A stretch of DNA of 57,483 bases, filler included, from Perkinsus olseni (Eukaryota), in NCBI GenBank assembly GCA_013115125.1. It is 6 parts of 6 records of this genome, joined end to end, with 100 filler letters (N's around TTAATTAATTAA, not from the genome) between each part and the next. Parts side by side here need not be neighbours in the genome. Positions count along the whole stretch, not along the records: positions 9,716 to 19,314 come from JABANN010000913.1; 5 more parts are not named here. One strand, 5' to 3'. Of this stretch, positions 9,616 through 48,113 are shown piece by piece (position 1 is the stretch's first letter; each line of letters starts with the position of its first letter). A program made the translations under genes and the position numbers. A model generated the notes under the pieces. The model searched no databases, was not told the DNA's origin, and saw only the letters and a program-made list of their open reading frames with translations.

Positions 9616-9715
9616 NNNNNNNNNNNNNNNNNNNNNNNNNNNNNNNNNNNNNNNNNNNNTTAATTAATTAANNNNNNNNNNNNNNNNNNNNNNNNNNNNN
9701 NNNNNNNNNNNNNNN
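9616..9715. other. Artificial contig linker (N44-TTAATTAATTAA-N44)
   Basis: Six-frame stop linker inside Ns, identical at five places. Confidence 0.99.
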
Positions 9716-10487
9716 CTCAAGTTCTGAACTGTTGGGTTCAGTCAATGTCTGACAACCCTCAAGGGAGCGGAACACCTGCCGTTAATATATGAAGGAGAAT
9801 TTTGATACACAATCTAGTTCTTTCAGCGGTCTCCCATGGGAAATGCTTTCGCGCAATGCAGACGCTGTCCCTCTGGTTCCGGAGGGATTGTGATTTTTGT
9901 GCTCTCCCAGGTACATCTCCCTGACGGGCTGAGATCCAATCAGCCGCGTCAAGAACTATCTTTTGAAAGATCGTTAAGTTGTATCATCTTCATCATCACC
10001 TGCTGCTGCTGCCCGTCACGTTTTGTTGTCGACTTGACGATTTTCACCCGGCCTGGCGGCGGCGGCCACGGCGGCGCTGATGAAGTTTTGGTATATATTT
10101 TTGAAGTAGTCTTAGTAGACATGATAGACATGTCAAGTGTCCACGGCCACTGCGGGTTTGTGTTGGTATACGGACTAGCTCACCCATCCCCGGCAACTTC
10201 CGTACAAGAGAACCCGACACGATAAACTTTCGACTATCATGGCGTTGCGAACGAGTAGCCTACCAGGGAGGGGCGCGCCCTTCACGCGACTAAGCTTACG
10301 GACACTGACCGAGCGGAGGGTAACGGCATGCAAAGGCATCCTCTTCGGAAGCGTTCGTGACGGCAACCGAGAAAACATCTCTTCAAGCCCCTCACCTCTC
10401 CTCCGACCATCCTGAAATCTGAAAATTTCGAGCGAGTCACTTTTCCGAAACGCCAATCTCAATAGGTTTTCCGAGTAGTCCTCAGCC

Positions 10488-12534
10488 ATGCCCCCGCTGG
10501 TAGAAGCCACGTCTGCTTTCAAAGGAGTTATCGATCAGTCTACTGAGTCCTTGCAGAGGATTCGACGGGTACATCGACAGAGCGTATCTTAGGTTGATCA
10601 AGGTTCTATACAGATTCTGGAAGCTGTCGGGGGCCCGCTGGAGGCGCTAGCGGCCTCAGGGTCGAGGTTTGTTCATGTCACTGGTAACTTCCCGGGGGGG
10701 GAGCATTGCATCAGTTTCCCTGAGCGCTCCCTTTCAGGGACCAATGGGAAGGGTACGCTGTGCGCAGGCCTCGCTGCAAAACTACAGCAGTTTCGAGTGG
10801 GGACCTTCACCAGTCCGTGTCAGCGATGGCCGAACGACCAGATATCAGTTAACGGCGACATCATGCCCGCCGCAGAGTGAGCTTGAAAAAGGACAGGCTC
10901 TTGCTGCTACGGCCGTGGACTGAATCAGGTATGAGCGAGAATTGCAGTGCATAATGGAAGGGGCCCGCAAGGAGGGAGAGGTCGGATTGACAGACTTTGA
11001 GGCGACGACTATCGCTGCGTTCTCCTGGTTCGCTAAGATGAGGTGGGTACCCTGTAGATGGTAAAGGTCGCGATTGATGCGCTCAGGCCGCTAGATTTCG
11101 TCATCATCGAAGTTGGCATGGGTGGCCGGGACGACGCTACTAACGTGAGCTTTCCTTCCCTCTCAGTGGTGATCATCAGCATGCCTCGAGTCAGGTCCTC
11201 CCTAGAACGGACGTGGCTGTTTTAACGGGTGTCGCCCTCGACCATACCAACTTTTTGGGACCGACACTCGAGGATGTAGGGGGACTTATGTATACCCTTA
11301 GGCTGTCGTGGTCGATTTCCAGATATGTCGGGCAAAGTGTGGTATCATCACCCCGCACACCCGCACGGCTGTGGTCTCCGGGGCCTACGTCGATGCGTCG
11401 TGCCTTGATATTGTGCAAGACAGATGCGCCCTGACCGGCACCAACTTGCGGGTGGTGGAGGGCTCCGCTGAAAGCGACGACTACAAAGGCCACTACGCCG
11501 CCCTCGAGGATGAGATCATGAAGGCCCTCGGTGTCTCTGATGATCAGGAGGGCCGGCGTTCCGGTAGGGGTACTTCGAATGGATTCCGTCACAGTGGGCC
11601 TTCAACAGGTGTCGGGAAGCATCTAGAGTTGCGAGGTCGACAAGAGCTCACCCAGCATCCACTGGACCTCACCTTTCCCATGATACTGGACGGTGCTCAC
11701 AACGAGAAGGGTCTCAGGTCCCTGGCGCACTTCATACAGCAGACCTTAGAGGGGCAGCCGGAGATCACTGAGGTGCTCGCTGATACTCGTACAGACCTCA
11801 ACCCAGTACAGTGTTCGATTCTTGATAGCCTTAAACTCAAAAGCCCGAAAAAGGCAACAGGAAAATACCTTTGAAACTTGAAACTTACCAAGTGCTCATC
11901 ATTTTCGACCGAAGCTTCACACAACGAGGCAGTGTGTGTAACCTACTCCTCTGACCATCCAAAGTCTACTTTTTCGTTTGATACTTCTAGTTGCCATGGT
12001 CGCATTTATTTACCGCATCCAGTATCGGGGTGTCAGTTACGGTTCATCGTGGCCCTCTCCGGCGGTAGGAGCCCCAGTGAGCTCTTCCCTCTGTTTTTAA
12101 AGCCCTTCGCGGTGCCCACGACCAGTGTCTACACCACCACCTTCAGAGACGTCCCGCAAATGCCCTGGGTAGGATCAAATCAATTTCCAATGCAACGTCG
12201 AAGGGAATCCCGATCAGGTGAAAGCCGTGGATCCAACAGAAGCTACCAAGGCAGCTGAACAGTAAGTCATGGCATTGACGCTGTCATAAACTTGCATGCG
12301 CCGACTCAGGTGTTTGCCATCGACGAAGATCATCGAGCCCATGGAGGACCTGACGACCGCTTTAAAAAGGTCTGTTTACCCCAATACGGACGGTGAGTGT
12401 CTTGACCAGTCTCTCCTGCTACTTTCACGTCGTTCTTCTCAGTAACTCACCGCCCCCTCGTGGTCGTGTGCGGTTCGCTTTACCTAGTACGAGAGTATCT
12501 ATTGTTACTTGACGAGGGGCTGCTCGGAATTTGA
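10488..12534 (+). CDS. folC: Folylpolyglutamate synthase / dihydrofolate synthase (FolC family), multi-exon
   Basis: Spliced motifs FVHVT|GTNGKGT, VGTFTSP, LTDFEATT, IIEVGMGGRDDATN|V, VALDHTNFLGPTLED|ICRAKCGII, ILDGAHN and LVVCGSLYLV. Confidence 0.92.
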
Positions 12535-12633
12535 TTTCCAACCATCGCTGTTGCGTTCGAGTTAACACTCTCAACTCAATAACGACCGCACTTTGAAAAA
12601 TATATCTTTGCATAGTACGGGACAGTGGATACT

Positions 12634-13450
12634 TCATTCGAGCCCTTCCGAGGTCGTTGCCGTGTTCCCTTCTGCGGCCGGCGGCGTAGGGCTGACAGTA
12701 GGGCGAGGACATCGTGACCACCGAAGTGGCCCTACTCCCAGTCTATCACCTTGTGGTTGTAGTCGCTCGAGGCGATTCTGCTTCCGTTGAATTGCTGCAA
12801 CTGGTCGTTGAACACGTCGCATTATACAGTACTCGCTGGTCACTCTCTTCCCCTGCTGATATCATATCGCGCTCCGTCTGAGAGAACACAATGACCACCA
12901 CGGTACTACGAACCCTCCCTTCCTCACTGGCCCCAGCTTAGTCGTCGCCAACTGCCACGCTGAGTTGTATATATCCGCTGCCTTGGTCGCTGCCACTAGA
13001 AACTGACAAAGTTCTGATGCTGCATAGCACCACTGGGCCAGGGCATCCGGGCTGAAGTCGGGGTCCAGTAGAATAGAATGCAACCTGATGGTAAAGACGG
13101 TTTGCGAAGGAGGACGGAAGAGCCACGATTACTTATTGAGTGTCCACAGAGACACATCCTGAGCACGACGATCCATCAGTCGTTCGACGAACTGCTCTGG
13201 AGAGGCTCTGATATCAGATACCATGCTTTGGTAGGAGGGAGTGGGCTCTTCACTGATCGTGACGGGAGATGGCATCGTGCCTGAAGTGGCCTTTGCTGTA
13301 CCATCGCAAGCCCACTCGGCCCTCACCCGTAACAATAGCGACGTCTCTGTAGTTCATAAACAGAGTGTAGGCCATCGCTGTGAGATTTAGTGTTCGCGAT
13401 AGGGGCACGCTAGTGATGGAAGACACCCCATCAGGATTGGCCTTCAAGTA
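12634..13450 (-). CDS. Hypothetical multi-exon protein
   Basis: Chain of minus-strand ORFs (13129-13335, 12862-13083, 12634-12843) separated by short GT-AG-like gaps; no motif. Confidence 0.3.
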
Positions 13451-14496
13451 ACTGAACTTACACGATAGGAGCTCTCCCTATACATCTCGCTGTACACGGT
13501 ACAACCGCCACGACAGACAGTGGCAGTCCTTATCGACTCCCGAGCTGCGAGTAAGAGAAGGCCCCCTCGACCGGTATTACCATATTGAGTCAACCATTTG
13601 CCCAGTGTACCGTGAAGTCCGATCCATCAGAGCGACGAACTCTGAGTATGCGTCATTCTCTTTACACCCGAGGTTTCCCATTATGCAATAGTGAGACGCT
13701 GAATGGAAGAAAGGCGTGGAAGAATCAAGTTGTGTTTAATAGACCTCCTCTGAAGAAGCCGGTCGAAGCCTTAGAGCAGGAAGACGTAATAATTAATTCA
13801 TGTATTGCTCGTTATTAAGAACAGTTTCAATCTGATCTCCTCTACGTGCTCCCGGGATGACTTTAAGATACGCCAAGCTCAACCCTGGGAGCGCTCGGGA
13901 TTCAGGAGAGATCTATTGGGCTCCCCTGATACTTCTCATTGTTGAGGGGAATAGAATCGTAATCGAGCACACATCAACTCTGTTCGGCCTCGCTGCCCAG
14001 TGCCGCCCTACGGAGATCTGCGAACCACTCACAAGAGTGCCCGACGTATTAGGACGCTAACCCCGTCCCATCACGTACGCCCATGAGGCAACGGCCCGTC
14101 GCATTGTACCGCTCAATGGGGATTGCTTCATTCTACTACCCCCACACCTGAACGCACAGGTTTCCTAATCGAACCAGGACCAGGGGAAGCCGTTCCCGAC
14201 CAACTTGTCAGCAAAAGGAGAACTTGGCTGTCGTAGGACTCCCACTTTCAAATGAAGAGCAGGCGACCTGCCGCTAGGCATGCGTATGATGAAGGGACGA
14301 CCAGTAGGAAGTACCGCCGAATCCGTGCCTCGCTTCGCGGACTAGCCGTGAATGCTCGGGAAAAGGTAGAAGTCGATTCTCATAGAATCGTCAATTTCCG
14401 TTGAAGCGGTCGAATAGAAGGAGAGGTCGGTGTGACTAGCTGCGCTAAGATTTCGCAAGACCTGTTAAGTGCGCAAGATGACATGTCATGTTATGA

Positions 14497-14934
14497 TGTT
14501 GTAAGAAAGCAAGTGAGTGACTTGCTTTTATTTGGCTGGAAAATTACTCTTAAGTTACAGTGCGACAGTATGGCACTGGGCTCTGGATCTATAATGTTCA
14601 CAACATGGCGATCTCGGTGGGACCTCACCTCTTATAACATAGAAGATCCACCCCCTTCGACCATATGTGAGAAAGTCCATGCCTTAACAGACTGGTTGCT
14701 CGAGAGTGGTACGATCGCGCCGCGATCCATGAGAATTTCCAGCGAGATATCCCGCGTTGCAAAACAGATCGCAACCATCTGGAAGAGAGCAAAGATTACT
14801 GATATCGCTGTCACCAAGCCCGAGGCCGATGCTGACAGAACCCCGATGGTCGATGGGTTTGAAACAGCTGGAAAATTACTCTTAAGTTACAGTGCGACAG
14901 TATGGCACTGGGCTCTGGATCTATAATGTTCACA
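14497..14934 (+). mobile_element. Miniature or internally deleted LTR retroelement: 109-bp LTR, PBS, ~245-bp internal region, partial second LTR
   Basis: 14497-14605 starts TGTTGT and ends ACAACA. It is followed directly by TGGCGATCTCGGTGGGAC (PBS-like). 68 bp of it (14535-14602) recur identically at 14867-14934. Confidence 0.7.
14606..14623 (+). promoter_or_regulatory. Primer-binding site (18 nt), probably for a tRNA-Arg
   Basis: Reverse complement GT-CCCAC-CGAGATC-G-CCA fits tRNA positions 59-76 (C61, discriminator G, CCA). It abuts the LTR-terminal CA. The Arg assignment is an inference. Confidence 0.65.
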
Positions 14935-14973
14935 TCGGGTACTCCGCCACAGGTCGTGCTGTGAGTGAGGGGG

Positions 14974-15035
14974 TGAAGTACAAAATCCAAGGGAAAGGTA
15001 CAAAATCCAAGGGAAAGGTACAAAATCCAGGGAAA
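14974..15035 (+). repeat. 20-bp tandem repeat (GTACAAAATCCAAGGGAAAG, ~3 copies), member of a dispersed family
   Basis: Seen directly; related units at 30699-30820 and 50060-50384. Confidence 0.9.
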
Positions 15036-15261
15036 CGCGTGCGACAGGCAGGTAAAGGCGAGAGAAAGAAGCCTGAATTGCGGGTGAAAGCAAGTGTCCC
15101 GACAGCGATCCCTAAACACTCTAGTTGCAGTAGATAGTGCACCATCACAGTATATTGGTCGCGGGTTCGACCCCCAGACCATTCATTTTGCTAATTAGTG
15201 AGAGTATACGTCGCCCGCCCGGAAGCCCATGAATGCTCCGGGTCGGGTTCGTGATGTAAAA

Positions 15262-15283
15262 GCCGTAGCCATCTTGGCTCAAG
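15262..15283 (+). ncRNA. Genomic spliced-leader exon (Perkinsus/dinoflagellate-type SL) followed by a GT donor
   Basis: GCCGTAGCCATCTTGGCTCAAG|GT. It matches the Perkinsus SL ACCGTAGCCATCTTGGCTCAAG at 21/22 and differs by one base from the dinoflagellate DCCGTAGCCATTTTGGCTCAAG. Confidence 0.9.
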
Positions 15284-15316
15284 GTCTCAGTTCTTCTGTG
15301 TGTTTGGTTCGACAGT

Positions 15317-18300
15317 ATGGCACCAGCCCCCTACAGCGGCGACTCGTCACATGGTGCATCATCCGGCCGCTTCGCCTTCCTGGCTGACGCGGTTTCTCGG
15401 GTGGTCGAGGAGCAGGCTGTCTCGGCTGACTCTTCATATTTGTCGGAGCGTAACCTGAGAAGACTTGAGGACCCCTACACAGCCGTGCAATCCATGATGG
15501 GTGTCACGGCTTTCGCGGCGTATGGGTTGGTACCCGGTCTCATGCTTACCGGACCGAACGGACAACTGTTGCAACTATCGGTTGATGAGTGGGCCAAGGC
15601 TTGGAGTATAAGCAAGCCTACGGCCTGGAATGAGTCCTATTGGAGGCAACTGTGTACCACCCTTGATCTAGCAAAGCTGGCAGCTCCAATGAAGCTTGCC
15701 ATTCTATCACGCCTGTTGCCCAATAAGCAGGCCCTCATTGTTCAAGAGGGGTGCATTGCACACCTTGAGAACATCCTTCGATGGAGAACCATTGACATAC
15801 ATGCTTGTGAGGCTGATGAGAGTCGACGCGAAGCGACTATAGGCTCAATGAAGACCTGGTTGGCGTCGTGCTACGAAGCTTTACAAGAGATATCCAAGAA
15901 CTTGGATGCAGACTTCGCCGTGGTGGACTCGTCTCTTGCCTTGCAGCGCTGGGTGGACTTCGAGCCGACGGGCAGCGCTTGGTCCGACTACTGTCACCAC
16001 GAGAAGTTGCGATGCTCTCAAGCCGAGCACATCGACTTCACGTCCACTGATGGATGGGCACTGCGGAGGGATCGGCTTCTGAGGTCCATCTCACAATTTG
16101 GAGTACTCAAGGATGCGGCGATGCGTGGCCAGCTCGTGCCAAGGCTACGAGAGACCACCAGTATCACTGATTTCCATTTTATTGTCGACTCTATGAGCAA
16201 GGACCTGCGCTTCCCATCAGTCGATGAGTTTCTGGGGGTGTGTCCGGGGAAGGCACCCGCAGGAAACGATAAGGAAATCTGCAAGCACTACCAGAAGCGT
16301 GGGACATGTAAGTATGGGGATGCCTGTAAATACAGTCATGCGGCGACCAGTGGACTGCCGGTCGCCGACCACAGCCAACGGGACGTACACCAGTTCAGAC
16401 GTTCACCAGTTGGCAGTTCGCCCCCCTATTCGGGTGAACCCCGGACAGGTGAGCGCAGGCGGTCAATGCCAGACCTACGAACGCCATCTGTGAGCGCCCA
16501 AGTCAAGACTGAAGACTCCGGAGGCCCCGAGCAAGGTAAGACTGACCGGATGGTATGCCAGCACTTTGACAAGCACGGAACTTGCAAGTTTTGCGATGGT
16601 TGCAAATTCCAGCATCAACCAAAAGAAGCACAAGACACGACAACGCCTCCGGAGGACGATGAACCAAGGAGGTCAGAGAGATTGCGCCAGAAAGAGACTA
16701 AGACTGTTGGCGCCGTGTCGCCAGTGCATTCGGCCAGGGAGAACAGCGAGGAGATCTGCATAAAGGTTCTCGAGATCAACGGTCAAAAAAGAAACTGCAT
16801 AGTTGACTCTGGGGCCGCAGTGTCACTGGCCGTCTCTGATGCCGTGTGTAGTGAGGCCGAGATTGAGACCTGTGACAAAATTCGGGCCGTCCGAGGGGTC
16901 GGTGGAGGTGAGTTAACGGTACACGCTAAAGCCTCGCTCCCTGTCAGAGGACCGACGGAATTAATTGAGGTAGATTTTTTGGTGGTTGACTCCCTCCCCT
17001 ACAGTCATGAGTACCTCCTGGGATGGAAGGACATGGTGAAGCTCGGCCTCCAAGTCTCTCCCAAGCGCAGTGATGCGCAGACCATATCAGAATTTACCCT
17101 CCCTCCTGACGATGCGGGGGGAACGGGAAGCGAAGGGCTGGATAAACTGTTGGCAGCGGAGGCCAGAATTCGCAAAGATGCTGAGACTTGTGCCTGCAAA
17201 GCTCGAGACATCCTCGTAGAGCGTGGGCGGGTTTGGTCACCATTACCAGCGGCGGAAGACTATCAAGGTCGGGTCCGTGAGCTCCTTCCCGAAGAGAAGC
17301 GCGATCTCCCTGACCAAACACACACTGTGGAAATTCGCTGGGATGGCTCTGAACCCCCTGCGGCTAGCGGCGGCGACTTTTCCGTGAGGATGATGCGAAA
17401 CCTAAGCGAAGAGCAGCGGGTGGCCTTCGCGGCTGAGTGTCATAAGTTTATCTCAAAAGGGTGGTGGGTCAAAAGCAGCGGCTTGAGCAGCAACAGTGGA
17501 CCGGCTGGGGTATCATTCCCTCGGTTCCAAGGGCCCTGGAAATCCACCTCAACGCGAGCTGTGGTTGATCTCAAGCGTTGGAACTCCTCGCGCCCCAAAG
17601 CTAGTTGGGATGGTCAACCCTGCTCAGCATTGGTCATGTCATGGAGGGGGCGGTGTTCGACAAAGGACAGTACAATCTTCTTAGACCTCTCGAAGGCCTA
17701 CTACAAGAACCGGCTGCATGTGTCTGAAGTCGGGTGGATATTCATAAGATGTCTTGGCGAGTTGTATAAGACGGACCGAACTGCCTTTGGGGCAGGGTTC
17801 GGCTGTGCTGCTATGGCCTTCGGTGTCAGGTTACTGATGACGGCAGTCTGCATTGCCATACATCTCTTCCTGAGCACGTCGGAGGAGCCCGAGAGAGTTG
17901 AGCAGAGCTTCGCCGAGATGTCCCCGGCCGACCTCCAGCTAGCGCTGAGCGGCCATGGCATTAACTGGTTGGATTTTTTGGATGATGTGCTGGCATTTGG
18001 GCCCCTACACAGCATCGCGATGTTCACGCTCTGCATGCGCCTCACGGCCACTATCATTGGCTATGAATTCCCGCTGCCAAAAATTGATGTCATAAGTGAA
18101 GTGCCCACTTCTGCCGTAGGTCCCAGGCACCTGGGCCTCACGTGGACGGCAGCCGGAGCGAGTTGTGTTGATGTTCGGCAACAGCTCCTAGCAGAGGACC
18201 CATCTACTGCCGAGGCCAAGCTGAGCAAGGCTGACCTGTACAGGATAGCGGGCCTCCTTCAAGATGTGTCCCGATGCCATGGAGAGAGACGCTACCTTGC

Positions 18301-19279
18301 AGATCTCATCAGGAGGTTTGGAGGTCGCCTACCGAAGAAGACGCCGCACCCAAAAGCAGACTGGCAGGCCAAGCACCACCTCAGCGCTGAGCAAACCGCG
18401 ACTCTGTGCTCGTGGATCAAGGCCGCGGCCGATACATACACTGAGGGTTGCTGCCACGGGCCGACCGGCGACAGGGGACAAACTCTGATCTTGTACACCG
18501 ATGCATCAAGCGTAGGCTATGGTTGGGCACTCTGGCGGGGCTCAGGACTGCCGAATTTGGCAGAGGACCAGCCACATAATGCCGAAGCCTTGATGAGCAT
18601 GGGATATGTACTGCTGGAGGAGGAAGCCAAGCATTTCCCGGGATCACGAGGCCAAGACTGGCACGTCAACCGTAAAGAACTGGCGGGCGTCGCTTCGGGC
18701 CTCTCGGCGGTGTACTGTTGGGTCTTCAAAAGACGAATGACCACAGTGAAAGAGGTACTGGTACTGGGGGACAACGTCTCGGCCCTTAAGTGGGCAGGGA
18801 TCCCCGATAAGCCAATCAAGTCCTTTGATGTAGCAGGTATACGGAATCTGCAGTCCAGCCTGTCAGAGCTACGGGTGTCCCTCTCACAAGCTGGTATAAA
18901 TGTCCGGTTCTGCCATATTCAGGGGAAGTGCAACGTGATAGCTGATCAGCTCTCTCGCCTCGGAGTTCGGTTCCCCCTTCGACCTTCCACTGGCAATGAC
19001 CAACGGCCTCTTGTGGGTGTCGCTCTGGAAGTGTCCGGTGAACTCTTACACATGATTGAGGCCGCCACGGCCTGTGATACGGCAATACCCGCAGGGCTAG
19101 AGTCTTGTACTGTCAAGGGAAGGTCGGTGCTTCGAAGGAATGGAGCTATCTACATCCCCGAGTCCTGTCGACAGCGTGTGCTGGCATTGGCCCACTCGGA
19201 CAATCACCTCAGTGGGCGTCGGACTGTGGGGGCAATGGCAAACCTAGCAACACTCGCAGCTGAGCTGCTAGAAGTGTAA
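15317..19279 (+). mobile_element. LTR-type retrotransposon gag-pol polyprotein (1320 aa; order PR-RT-RH-IN; integrase core missing)
   Basis: Intronless ORF with two C-x8-C-x5-C-x3-H fingers and protease IVDSGA. RT motifs RAVVDLKRWN, FLDLSKAYY, FG, FLDD and HLG. RNase H motifs YTDAS, NRKELAG, GDN and HIQGKCNVIADQLSR. Ends with the start of the integrase Zn domain (IYIP...LAHSDNH). Confidence 0.92.
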
Positions 19280-19314
19280 CACAAGATCCGGAGATATTGG
19301 GCTGCGATGGAGAG

Positions 19315-19414
19315 NNNNNNNNNNNNNNNNNNNNNNNNNNNNNNNNNNNNNNNNNNNNTTAATTAATTAANNNNNNNNNNNNNNNNNNNNNNNNNNNNNN
19401 NNNNNNNNNNNNNN
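19315..19414. other. Artificial contig linker
   Basis: N44-TTAATTAATTAA-N44. Confidence 0.99.
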
Positions 19415-28969: not shown

Positions 28970-29069
28970 NNNNNNNNNNNNNNNNNNNNNNNNNNNNNNN
29001 NNNNNNNNNNNNNTTAATTAATTAANNNNNNNNNNNNNNNNNNNNNNNNNNNNNNNNNNNNNNNNNNNN
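28970..29069. other. Artificial contig linker
   Basis: N44-TTAATTAATTAA-N44. Confidence 0.99.
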
Positions 29070-38527: not shown

Positions 38528-38627
38528 NNNNNNNNNNNNNNNNNNNNNNNNNNNNNNNNNNNNNNNNNNNNTTAATTAATTAANNNNNNNNNNNNNNNNN
38601 NNNNNNNNNNNNNNNNNNNNNNNNNNN
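38528..38627. other. Artificial contig linker
   Basis: N44-TTAATTAATTAA-N44. Confidence 0.99.
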
Positions 38628-48013: not shown

Positions 48014-48113
48014 NNNNNNNNNNNNNNNNNNNNNNNNNNNNNNNNNNNNNNNNNNNNTTAATTAATTAANNNNNNNNNNNNNNNNNNNNNNNNNNNNNNN
48101 NNNNNNNNNNNNN
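48014..48113. other. Artificial contig linker
   Basis: N44-TTAATTAATTAA-N44. Confidence 0.99.

What the first reader, a model, noticed from the sequence alone, without database searches (positions are those of the whole stretch)
15262..15319. Retrotransposon headed by its own genomic spliced leader: SL exon, 32-nt GT...AG segment, then T-ATG of gag-pol
Seen: the 22-nt SL (15262-15283) is followed by GTCTCAGTTCTTCTGTGTGTTTGGTTCGACAG (15284-15315; GT start, pyrimidine-rich, CAG end), one T, and the ATG of the 1320-aa polyprotein. Known: Perkinsus and dinoflagellate mRNAs receive this SL by trans-splicing; relict SLs mark retroposed dinoflagellate genes; some non-LTR elements target SL genes (SLACS/CRE in trypanosomatids, NeSL in nematodes). 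Inference, three models: (a) the element encodes the SL in cis, so transcription from it, with or without cis-splicing of the 32-nt segment, mimics a trans-spliced host mRNA, while the unspliced RNA keeps the candidate primer site (TGG at 15305, inside the segment); (b) an LTR-type element inserted into or captured an SL RNA gene, which the retained GT donor favours; (c) the element acts as a mobile SL donor.
Basis: partly seen in the sequence, partly recalled or inferred. Interest (0 to 1): 0.92.

Follow-up and report, generated by a model that had tools for sequence, protein, structure and literature searches.

The report
Genomic spliced leader heading Perkinsus retrotransposon
A DNA copy of the spliced-leader tag of the shellfish parasite Perkinsus sits just upstream of a single-copy retrovirus-like element, probably inside its terminal repeat, and looks like a fossil of reverse-transcribed leader-capped RNA rather than a small intron device.

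Summary
The sequence is as described: a 22-nt Perkinsus-type spliced leader (SL) at 15262-15283, 32 nt GT...CAG, one T, then the ATG of a 1320-codon ORF. The ORF is a divergent gag-protease-RT-RNase H-integrase polyprotein of Perkinsus olseni, cut off by the contig end. An independent DNA run bridges all three junctions, so this is not a misassembly.

The intron idea fails. All 14 of 14 local introns start GT[A/G] and are 44-380 nt. The candidate starts GTC, is 32 nt, and is retained in an RNA contig.

The coding body has single-copy k-mer depth. A block from about 15093/15161 to about 15351, with the SL inside it, has 2.3-3.5 times that depth and ends ...CA before TGG. I read it as the probable 5' LTR carrying a DNA-encoded SL; the 3' LTR is not in the contig.

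Genomic SL copies without an SL-RNA intron are already known in P. marinus (>100; PMC3101222). In 57 environmental loci with this SL, 0 were followed by a retroelement. An SL inside an LTR would be a new variant of a known phenomenon. Its function is unproven.

The parts
15093..15351 (+). Low-copy repeated block, the candidate 5' LTR (TGT at 15095 ... ACA at 15349-15351, 257 bp if 15095-15351). It contains the tRNA-like piece, the SL, the 32-nt segment and the first 35 nt of the ORF.
   Evidence: run X3: contig 15101-15190 has depth 188.4 and contig 15161-15348 has depth 285.2, against 81.6-82.6 for the single contigs on the ORF body and on the flanking host genes. The unique body contigs start at 15322 in both X1 and X3. 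With the 30-nt contig overlaps seen at 13752-13781, the last shared base is about 15351. X1 contig 15001-15122 ends where a repeat starting at about 15093 would end it. Termini were read. The boundaries are inferred, and the 3' LTR is not in the contig.
15145..15190 (+). tRNA-like T-arm (GCGGGTTCGACCCCC) followed by an acceptor-like stretch and TTTT: a degenerate tRNA 3' half inside the block.
   Evidence: Read. Only a sub-threshold Rfam match to the tRNA-like end of tmRNA (7.1 bits, E 2.4). ARAGORN calls no tRNA here.
15262..15283 (+). DNA-encoded 22-nt spliced leader, G-first variant of PmaSL1.
   Evidence: PMC3101222 passage.
15284..15315 (+). 32-nt GT...CAG segment: ordinary 5' leader, not an intron.
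   Evidence: GTC donor against 14 of 14 GT[AG]; 32 nt against 44-380 nt. (X10 RNA contig 15280-15549 retains it; X6 RNA contig starts at 15312 inside it; no 15283>15316 joint among the 15 joints listed, 6 more not shown).
15317..19249 (+). gag-PR-RT-RNase H-(start of integrase) ORF, family-homologous part, 1311 codons. Two CCCH fingers 16280-16339 and 16556-16615; protease 16772-17026; RT FLDD 17975-17986; RNase H YTDAS 18494-18508; integrase H..H start 19193-19225.
15352..15368 (+). Candidate primer-binding site TGGTGCATCATCCGGCC, directly after the repeated block and inside the ORF.
   Evidence: Position relative to the copy-number step. No matching tRNA among the 6 tRNAs at hand (best 9-10 of 18). 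Untested against Perkinsus tRNAs.
19250..19314 (+). Very high-depth repeat at the contig end, where the ORF leaves the family sequence.
   Evidence: P0002 continues ...MANLA-WWPSWRR into integrase; the window does not. (bin 18996-19314 depth 79419 in X1 and 32168 in X3)..
14971..15092 (.). Dispersed high-copy repeat abutting the block on the left.
   Evidence: long contigs of X1 (2581 nt, depth 852) and X3 (10144 nt, depth 430) match only 14971-15092, with loose ends at 14971 and 15092.

Best explanation
The locus is the 5' end of a single-copy, integrase-bearing (LTR-type, Ty3/Bel-Pao-like) retrotransposon of Perkinsus olseni. The 22-nt SL is a DNA-encoded copy of the host spliced leader. It does not sit at the edge of the insertion. 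It lies inside a block of about 190-260 bp (about 15093/15161 to about 15351) that occurs 2-3.5 times per genome, ends ...CA and is followed at once by TGG. That block is most simply the element's 5' LTR, with the SL near the U3/R border, the gag ATG in U5 and the primer-binding site inside the ORF.

The SL most likely entered when an SL-capped (trans-spliced) element RNA was reverse-transcribed. This is the same process that left more than 100 SL copies in the P. marinus genome.

The 32 nt after the SL are plain leader sequence and are not spliced out. An RNA that starts at the SL, or is trans-spliced anew at the SL's own AG sites (15267-68 or 15282-83), would have the gag AUG as its first AUG.

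Shown: the SL, the ORF family, the junctions, the copy-number steps and retention of the segment in RNA. Inferred: the LTR identity, the U3/R position and the origin by reverse transcription.
For: The SL is unique in the window, and 0 of 100 shuffles contain it.

Family: P0002 is 97% identical over 861 aa and continues into Integrase_H2C2 + rve. Of 30 aligned relatives, 15 carry rve, 13 H2C2, 12 RVT_1 and 7 RT_RNaseH. The family profile's best solved relative is Ty3 Gag-Pol, E 4e-54.

Copy number: one contig covers the body (X1 188.2; X3 81.6), at the depth of the contig on the flanking host genes (205.5; 82.6). No other contig at least 85% alike adds depth to the body bins. X3 contigs 15101-15190 and 15161-15348 have 2.3x and 3.5x that depth.

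The repeated block extends at least 101 nt upstream of the SL within one contig. Its right edge (about 15348-15351) falls on CA|TGG and its left edge (15093-15101) next to TG.

Three ATGs lie in the 33 nt before the SL and none between the SL and the gag ATG.

Genomic SL copies without an SL-RNA intron are documented in P. marinus (PMC3101222 passages). In metagenomes, 54 of 57 loci with the exact 21-mer are not followed by GT, and most have an ORF starting within about 30-110 nt.
Against: The 3' LTR, polypurine tract and target-site duplication cannot be seen because the contig ends in a repeat at 19250.

No tRNA complementary to the candidate PBS was available.

The left boundary is fuzzy (15093 in X1, 15101 in X3, and a further depth step at 15161). 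Depths of 2.3x and 3.5x are not the clean 2x expected of two LTRs.

The tool warns that contig depth is not a copy number.

A tRNA-like piece with a TTTT run 72 nt upstream of the SL, and a right edge about 87-90 nt after the SL start (P. marinus SL RNA is 80-83 nt), also fit a small-RNA gene unit.

A DNA contig in X1 and X3 joins 15127 to 15277 (side only 20 nt) and is unexplained.

How a 22-nt SL could pass through first-strand transfer into an LTR is not established.
Confidence: 0.45

Rival explanations
1. Remnant of a small-RNA gene unit. The repeated block 15161-15348 would be a tRNA-like 3' half, a spacer/promoter and an SL RNA (pseudo)gene of about 87-90 nt. The retroelement, lacking its own 5' LTR, is fused to or inserted at the 3' end of this unit, or its LTR was built from such a unit.
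For: GT follows the exon. A tRNA-like T-arm plus TTTT lies at 15145-15190. The block's right edge is about 87-90 nt after the SL start, against 80-83-nt SL RNAs in P. marinus (PMC3101222). The block is multi-copy. In metagenome locus L044 an SL RNA gene-like unit lies among four tRNA genes. The segment shares TCAGTTC..CT.T.TG with the P. marinus S-type intron primer.
Against: The donor is GTC. Both SL RNA gene-like loci seen (L007, L044), both P. marinus types and 14 of 14 local introns have a purine at +3. There is no T-run of 4 or more in 15284-15450. Similarity to the P. marinus introns is reached by 27-56 of 500 shuffles. The fold of 15262-15348 is no better than shuffles (z +0.53). No snRNA or 5S gene is nearby. 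An integrase-type element without a 5' LTR needs an extra event.
Confidence: 0.2
2. Functional cis-encoded leader. Transcription starts at or near 15262, or the RNA is re-trans-spliced at the SL's own AG. The element RNA then carries a host-like SL 5' end. Because the SL is part of R in both LTRs, SL-bearing RNA remains a competent replication template.
For: Same anatomy as the best explanation. The leader from the SL to the gag ATG is free of ATGs, while three ATGs lie within 33 nt upstream of the SL. RNA contig X10 starts at 15280, inside the SL, and runs through the segment into gag. The ORF is intact over 1311 codons and conserved at 66-73% identity with a P. chesapeaki protein.
Against: No transcript 5' end was mapped. 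Expression is weak: X6 contig depths on the body are 5-8.6, against 168-1121 for contigs of the neighbouring genes. Only one copy exists, so there is no sign of recent success. The 3' LTR is unseen.
Confidence: 0.15
3. Plain processed retro-copy. An SL-trans-spliced element mRNA was copied and inserted by another reverse transcriptase, with or without a template switch onto SL RNA. The SL then marks the 5' end of the insertion and there is no LTR.
For: This is the standard origin of relict SLs (PMC6050394 and PMC3942190 passages). The SL is complete. The coding body is single-copy.
Against: One DNA contig at 3.5x depth runs from 101 nt upstream of the SL to 65 nt downstream of it (record 20), so the SL is internal to a repeated unit. 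No parent copy at least 85% alike was laid in X1 or X3. The ORF is intact.
Confidence: 0.1
4. Mobile SL donor. RNA from this locus donates its SL to host mRNAs by trans-splicing.
For: GT follows the exon.
Against: GTC is a poor donor (0 of 14 local introns). No terminator or SL-RNA-like fold was found. RNA contigs read through from the segment into gag.
Confidence: 0.02

Closest known systems
Relict (DNA-encoded) spliced leaders of retroposed mRNAs in dinoflagellates and Perkinsus ('mRNA recycling'). PMC3101222 reports more than 100 SL-like genomic copies without an intron in P. marinus (passages). Reviews: PMC6050394 and PMC6616646 (passages).
   Same: An exact host SL in genomic DNA, no recognisable SL-RNA intron or terminator, and a short leader before an ORF. 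The SL's internal AG (CCGTAG|CCA) is available for renewed trans-splicing.
   Different: Here the downstream gene is itself a retroelement polyprotein. The SL is internal to a repeated block (probable LTR), not the 5' edge of the copy. The first base is G, whereas most P. marinus copies (paper) and 41 of 57 environmental loci have T.
Authentic Perkinsus SL RNA genes, L and S types (PMC3101222).
   Same: The same 22-nt exon (21 of 22) followed by GT.
   Different: Their introns begin GTAGATATCAG / GTAAATATCAG, and their transcripts end in a poly-T tract at 80-83 nt. Here the sequence is GTCTCAG with no T-run. The P. olseni genes were not available.
SL-gene-specific non-LTR retrotransposons (SLACS, CRE, NeSL). 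Recalled from general knowledge; no paper on them was read here.
   Same: A retroelement physically associated with an SL exon.
   Different: Those are non-LTR elements that interrupt SL RNA genes at a fixed site. This element has protease and integrase, the exon is intact, and it lies upstream of the ORF in the same orientation.
Cer1, the Ty3/gypsy-type element of C. elegans (PMC3315495, passages).
   Same: An LTR-type element in a host that performs SL trans-splicing.
   Different: In Cer1 the SL1 is added in trans to a spliced 2.4-kb mRNA, the 8-kb gag-pol RNA is not trans-spliced, and no SL is reported in the DNA.
Yeast Ty1 layout, with the gag start codon inside the 5' LTR and the PBS inside the gag ORF. 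Recalled, not checked here.
   Same: The proposed layout: ATG 35 nt before the end of the repeat and a TGG primer site within the ORF.
   Different: Ty1 is copia-type and has no SL. The layout here is inferred from depth steps only.

Membership tests
Relict DNA-encoded spliced leader (retroposed trans-spliced RNA) | Host SL exon sequence present in genomic DNA | tested here: met
   21 of 22 positions match PmaSL1. One match in the window and 0 in 100 shuffles.
Relict DNA-encoded spliced leader (retroposed trans-spliced RNA) | No SL-RNA intron or terminator downstream | tested here: met
   GTC start. Similarity to P. marinus introns is reached by 27-56 of 500 shuffles. No T-run of 4 or more in 15284-15450. 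The P. olseni SL RNA gene was not available.
Relict DNA-encoded spliced leader (retroposed trans-spliced RNA) | SL marks the 5' boundary of the inserted copy | tested here: not met
   X3 contig 15161-15348, at 3.5x depth, carries 101 nt upstream of the SL together with it.
Relict DNA-encoded spliced leader (retroposed trans-spliced RNA) | mRNA shows a new SL followed by a truncated relic (CCA...) | not testable with these tools
   Only contigs of RNA runs were available. None listed reaches upstream of 15280 on this transcript.
LTR retrotransposon (Ty3/gypsy - Bel/Pao type) | gag, protease, RT, RNase H and integrase in this order | tested here: met
   Asp protease (weak hit, aa 486-570), FLDD, YTDAS and the H..H start in the window. 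P0002 (97%) adds H2C2 + rve. Relatives and the Ty3 structure match. Pfam RVT_1 does not hit the window's own protein.
LTR retrotransposon (Ty3/gypsy - Bel/Pao type) | Two direct long terminal repeats | not testable with these tools
   The contig ends at 19314 in a repeat. No direct repeat of the block occurs in the contig or window. Depth of 2.3-3.5x on the block is indirect support only.
LTR retrotransposon (Ty3/gypsy - Bel/Pao type) | TG...CA termini and a PBS (TGG...) next to the 5' LTR | tested here: inconclusive
   TGT at 15095, ACA at 15349-51 and TGG at 15352 coincide with the depth steps. No tRNA match among the 6 tRNAs at hand.
SL RNA gene | Exon followed by a functional donor and an intron conserved with known Perkinsus SL RNAs | tested here: not met
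   GTC, against GTA in P. marinus L and S types and in L007 and L044. Alignment not significant.
SL RNA gene | Poly-T terminator giving an RNA of about 80-83 nt | tested here: not met
   No T-run of 4 or more in 15284-15450.
SL-gene-targeting non-LTR elements (SLACS/CRE/NeSL) | Non-LTR architecture that interrupts the SL exon at a fixed site | tested here: not met
   The element has protease and integrase, and the exon is intact. The family features are recalled, not read.

The most novel reading that the evidence does not exclude
The element has taken the host spliced leader into the U3/R border of both LTRs. RNA that starts with the SL, whether by initiation at 15262 or by renewed trans-splicing at the SL's own AG, is handled by the cell like a host mRNA. 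It also keeps full R homology for first-strand transfer. This would be a retrotransposon adaptation to life in an SL trans-splicing host.
Probability: 0.12. Interest if true: 0.8.

Novelty: new variant of a known kind. Interest (0 to 1): 0.45.

Why it matters
Relict spliced leaders are the main evidence that dinoflagellates and perkinsids recycle mRNAs into their genomes, yet the reverse transcriptase responsible is not known. A retroelement that carries the leader in its own terminal repeat would be direct evidence that an LTR-type element has reverse-transcribed SL-capped RNA. It would also give a concrete test case for how such elements cope with trans-splicing of their genomic RNA. If the leader is only a fossil at one single-copy locus, the finding adds one unusual member to a known class. 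In six full-text searches I found no report of an SL inside an LTR element. Supplements were closed, and subscription journals are not covered.

Tried and rejected
- Whole genome: none is held, so the 22-mer could not be counted genome-wide and no full-length copy could be fetched.
- The look-up of sequencing runs: no RNA holder listed. X6 and X10 proved to be RNA only through intron-less contigs.
- Cover: X6 has no cover on 17716-18675 and X10 has none on most of the body. No inference is drawn from this.
- Earlier findings of this scan: nothing by place, by sequence or by words.
- Relatives of the polyprotein in metagenome contigs: none.
- Rfam: only two unrelated tRNAs at gathering score. 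Around the SL there is only a 7-bit tmRNA-end match.
- Fold of 15262-15348: z +0.53.
- PDB search with the single protein: 0 hits.
- PBS candidates against 2 window tRNAs and 4 tRNAs of L044: best 9-10 of 18.
- Relaxed ARAGORN on 14901-15500: three implausible calls, disregarded.
- A second, degenerate SL inside the 32-nt segment: score reached by 1275 of 2000 shuffles.
- The shared 17-mer (1 mismatch) between 14560-14576 / 14892-14908 and 15306-15322: score 29 against a shuffle maximum of 27, and it does not extend. Probably chance.
- Synteny through the N-terminal exons of P0134: no match in the window.
- L044's SL gene flanks against the block: no similarity.
- Cis-splicing of the segment and a misassembly at 15283/15317: both rejected.
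Full report
**1.

One search shows GCCGTAGCCATCTTGGCTCAAG at 15262-15283, a 32-nt stretch GTCTCAG...TTCGACAG at 15284-15315, one T, and ATG at 15317. One search lists an ORF 15317-19279 of 1320 codons. The 21-nt SL core, allowing 2 mismatches, occurs once in the window and in none of 100 shuffles. PMC3101222 (passages) prints the P. marinus leader PmaSL1, which differs only in the first base (A instead of G).

The window is not one chromosome piece. It is six contigs of about 9.4-9.6 kb joined by N44-TTAATTAATTAA-N44 linkers, and the finding lies in contig 9716-19314. No whole genome is held.

**2. What the ORF is**

Pfam sees only a CCCH zinc finger (aa 319-341, E 4.6e-9) and a weak aspartyl protease (aa 486-570). 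By eye the ORF carries RT-like FLDLSKAY and FLDD, RNase H-like YTDAS and an H..H integrase start.

The word-index protein searches found few close relatives:
- Two Perkinsus olseni proteins: P0002, 97% identical over 861 aa, and P0003, which starts with the same MAPAPYSG.
- One P. chesapeaki protein, P0004, at 66-73% identity.
- The clusters of these three hold four further P. olseni sequences.

P0002 continues where the window stops, into Integrase_H2C2 and rve. The exhaustive HMMER search gave 126 proteins at E up to 0.001, mostly about 30% identical over RT-RNase H. Of the 30 I aligned, 15 carry rve, 13 H2C2, 12 RVT_1, 7 RT_RNaseH, 4 zf-CCHC and 3 zf-CCCH. Their profile's best solved relative is Ty3 Gag-Pol (E 4e-54), followed by retroviral integrases.

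So this is a divergent, integrase-bearing LTR-type retroelement. The window's ORF leaves the family sequence after codon 1311 (19249). There a very high-depth repeat and the contig end begin.

**3. Independent reads**

I laid contigs of two DNA runs (X1, X3; different studies) and two RNA runs (X6, X10) on the whole contig.

- X6 and X10 are RNA. Their contigs skip 14 (X6) and 6 (X10) of the 15 listed joints, all with GT..AG or CT..AC ends. These define a + strand gene (about 10.5-12.4 kb) and a - strand gene (about 12.6-14.1 kb) upstream of the element.
- X3 has one 188-nt contig, 15161-15348, with no difference from the window. It bridges the SL's left edge, the SL/segment junction and the segment/ATG junction. 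A misassembly at these points is excluded at k-mer scale.
- X10 has a 270-nt contig, 15280-15549, without differences. It retains the 32-nt segment, while the same run lacks the neighbours' introns. Its depth is only 2.
- X6's contig on the ORF starts at 15312, inside the segment.
- No joint 15283>15316 is among the 15 joints listed; 6 more were not shown.
- Contig depths in X6 on the body are 5-8.6, against 168-1121 for contigs of the neighbouring genes. Expression is therefore weak.

**4. The segment is not an intron**

The 14 introns defined by those RNA joints all begin GTA or GTG, all end CAG, and measure 44-380 nt. PMC3101222 gives 39 nt as the shortest P. marinus intron. The candidate begins GTC and is 32 nt.

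A GT after a genomic SL is also not special. Among 57 metagenome loci with the exact 21-mer, 3 are followed by GT, about what chance gives. Two of those three (L007, L044) look like true SL RNA genes, with GTA and a T-run within about 40 nt.

**5. Is it an SL RNA gene?**

The P. marinus SL RNA introns begin GTAGATATCAGGTCC (L type) or GTAAATATCAGKTCC (S type), and the RNAs end in a poly-T tract at 80-83 nt.

- The window's segment aligns with these no better than 27-56 of 500 shuffles.
- There is no T-run of 4 or more in 15284-15450.
- The fold of 15262-15348 is unremarkable.
- Rfam finds no small RNA gene nearby.
- The P. olseni SL RNA gene itself could not be obtained, so this rival is weakened but not excluded.

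**6. Copy number and the repeated block**

This evidence comes and is inference from contig depths, which the tool warns are not copy numbers.

| Region | X1 depth | X3 depth |
|---|---|---|
| ORF body, one contig (15322-18988 in X1; 15322-19249 in X3) | 188.2 | 81.6 |
| Flanking host genes, one contig | 205.5 | 82.6 |
| 15101-15190 | not listed | 188.4 (2.3x) |
| 15161-15348 | not listed | 285.2 (3.5x) |

No other contig at least 85% alike adds depth to the body bins, so the element has one copy per genome at that level.

Neighbouring contigs overlap by 30 nt, as at 13752-13781. From this:
- The unique body contig starts at 15322 in both runs, which puts the last shared base at about 15351. 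The 188-nt contig itself ends at 15348.
- X1's contig ending at 15122 puts the first shared base at about 15093.

The sequence reads AG-TGTCCC at 15093-15100 and ...GTCACA-TGGTGCATCATCC at 15346-15364. That is TG...CA ends with a TGG directly after.

This is where an integrase-type element should have its 5' LTR and primer-binding site. I therefore read 15095-15351 (257 bp) as the probable LTR. The SL lies at positions 168-189 of it, the gag ATG 35 nt before its end, and the PBS inside the ORF. By recollection, Ty1 has this layout.

Weak points of the LTR reading:
- There is a further depth step at 15161, which falls at the start of a tRNA-like T-arm.
- The depth ratios are not whole numbers.
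- An unexplained DNA contig joins 15127 to 15277, with only 20 nt on one side.
- No tRNA matches the candidate PBS.
- The 3' LTR is not in the contig.

The excess summed depth in the bin 15156-15475 is not informative. Contigs from other SL-bearing loci or mRNAs could align on the 22-mer alone.

**7. What this does to the models**

- A plain processed retro-copy predicts that the SL is the first base of the insertion. Instead, at least 101 nt upstream of the SL travel with it in one multi-copy contig.
- The SL-gene-unit rival explains that, and also the tRNA-like piece. It fails on the donor, the terminator and the intron similarity, and it leaves an integrase-type element without a 5' LTR.
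- The LTR reading explains the position, both edges and the TGG. It needs an event that brought an SL into the LTR.

The simplest source is reverse transcription of an SL-capped element RNA. This is the process held responsible for relict SLs in dinoflagellates and noted in P. marinus (PMC3101222, PMC6050394, PMC6616646; passages).

The leader is clean. Three ATGs lie at 15229, 15233 and 15254, and none lies between 15262 and 15317. AG dinucleotides at 15267-68 and 15282-83 inside the SL could serve as acceptors for renewed trans-splicing, as described for relict SLs that begin CCA.

**8. How general is it?**

In this genome the test "how often does this gag follow the SL" reduces to one copy. 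In the 57 environmental loci:
- None matched any of the 132 stored proteins, including the RT family, by tblastn.
- None of the 10 longest SL-downstream ORFs had a retroelement domain.
- 41 of 57 have T before the 21-mer.
- 17 of 57 are followed by CC..., several of them degenerate truncated leaders.

Genomic SLs in front of ordinary ORFs are thus common. An SL in front of a retroelement was seen only here.

**9. Comparison and verdict**

- The phenomenon belongs with relict, DNA-encoded spliced leaders. It differs in that the gene is itself a retroelement and in that the SL probably lies inside a terminal repeat.
- It is not an SL RNA gene by the features I could test.
- It is not of the SLACS/CRE/NeSL kind (features recalled).
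- In Cer1 of C. elegans the leader is added in trans to a subgenomic mRNA only (PMC3315495).
- Six full-text searches found no report of an SL inside an LTR element. Supplements were closed.

I rate it a new variant of a known kind, of moderate interest. The decisive data are the 3' end of a full-length copy and mapped 5' ends of the RNA, and both were out of reach here.

Noticed in passing
window 9616-9715, 19315-19414, 28970-29069, 38528-38627, 48014-48113: The window is a chain of six contigs of about 9.4-9.6 kb joined by N44-TTAATTAATTAA-N44 linkers. Adjacency of the contigs therefore means nothing.
   Followed up: yes
window 9716-9787: The contig begins with CTCAAG, the last 6 nt of the SL. 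Its first 72 nt are a repeat: X1 bin depth is 4520 against 205. In RNA run X6 the bin depth is 118252, and contigs diverge after 9787 in X3, X6 and X10. This may be a second relict SL, cut by the assembly, in front of a repeated and highly expressed 5' piece.
   Followed up: partly
window 15145-15190: A degenerate tRNA 3' half (T-arm GCGGGTTCGACCCCC, acceptor-like stretch, TTTT) lies 72 nt upstream of the SL. The 3.5x-depth contig starts exactly at its T-stem, 15161.
   Followed up: partly
window 16280-16339 and 16556-16615: The gag part has two CCCH zinc fingers instead of the usual CCHC knuckles. Among 30 relatives, 3 have zf-CCCH and 4 have zf-CCHC.
   Followed up: partly
window 14971-15092: A dispersed high-copy repeat of 122 nt with three 20-nt tandem units. 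It matches long contigs of X1 and X3 only over this stretch, with 16 differences.
   Followed up: partly
window 14535-14602 and 14867-14934: An exact 68-nt direct repeat 332 nt apart. It holds a 17-mer (1 mismatch) also found at the ORF's start, 15306-15322. The score is barely above shuffles, so this is probably chance.
   Followed up: yes
window 13556-13875: A high-depth repeat (X1 10389, X3 3191) with clustered A>G and T>C variants at 13788-13797. It lies inside the 380-nt intron of the - strand gene.
   Followed up: no
window 19250-19314: A very high-depth repeat (X1 79419, about 400 times single-copy depth) interrupts or ends the integrase region. Its identity is unknown.
   Followed up: no
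L044:1362-1382 with tRNAs at 76-151, 628-699, 1650-1723, 2215-2282: A metagenome contig carries an SL RNA gene-like unit (SL + GTACAAG... + TTTTT) set among four tRNA genes (Ser, Pro, Asn, Pro).
   Followed up: partly
window 15127/15277: In both DNA runs one contig at single-copy depth joins 15127 to 15277. This gives ...TCTAGTTG-GCTCAAGGTCTCAG, a form that lacks 149 nt including the first 15 nt of the SL. Only 20 nt lie on one side.
   Followed up: no
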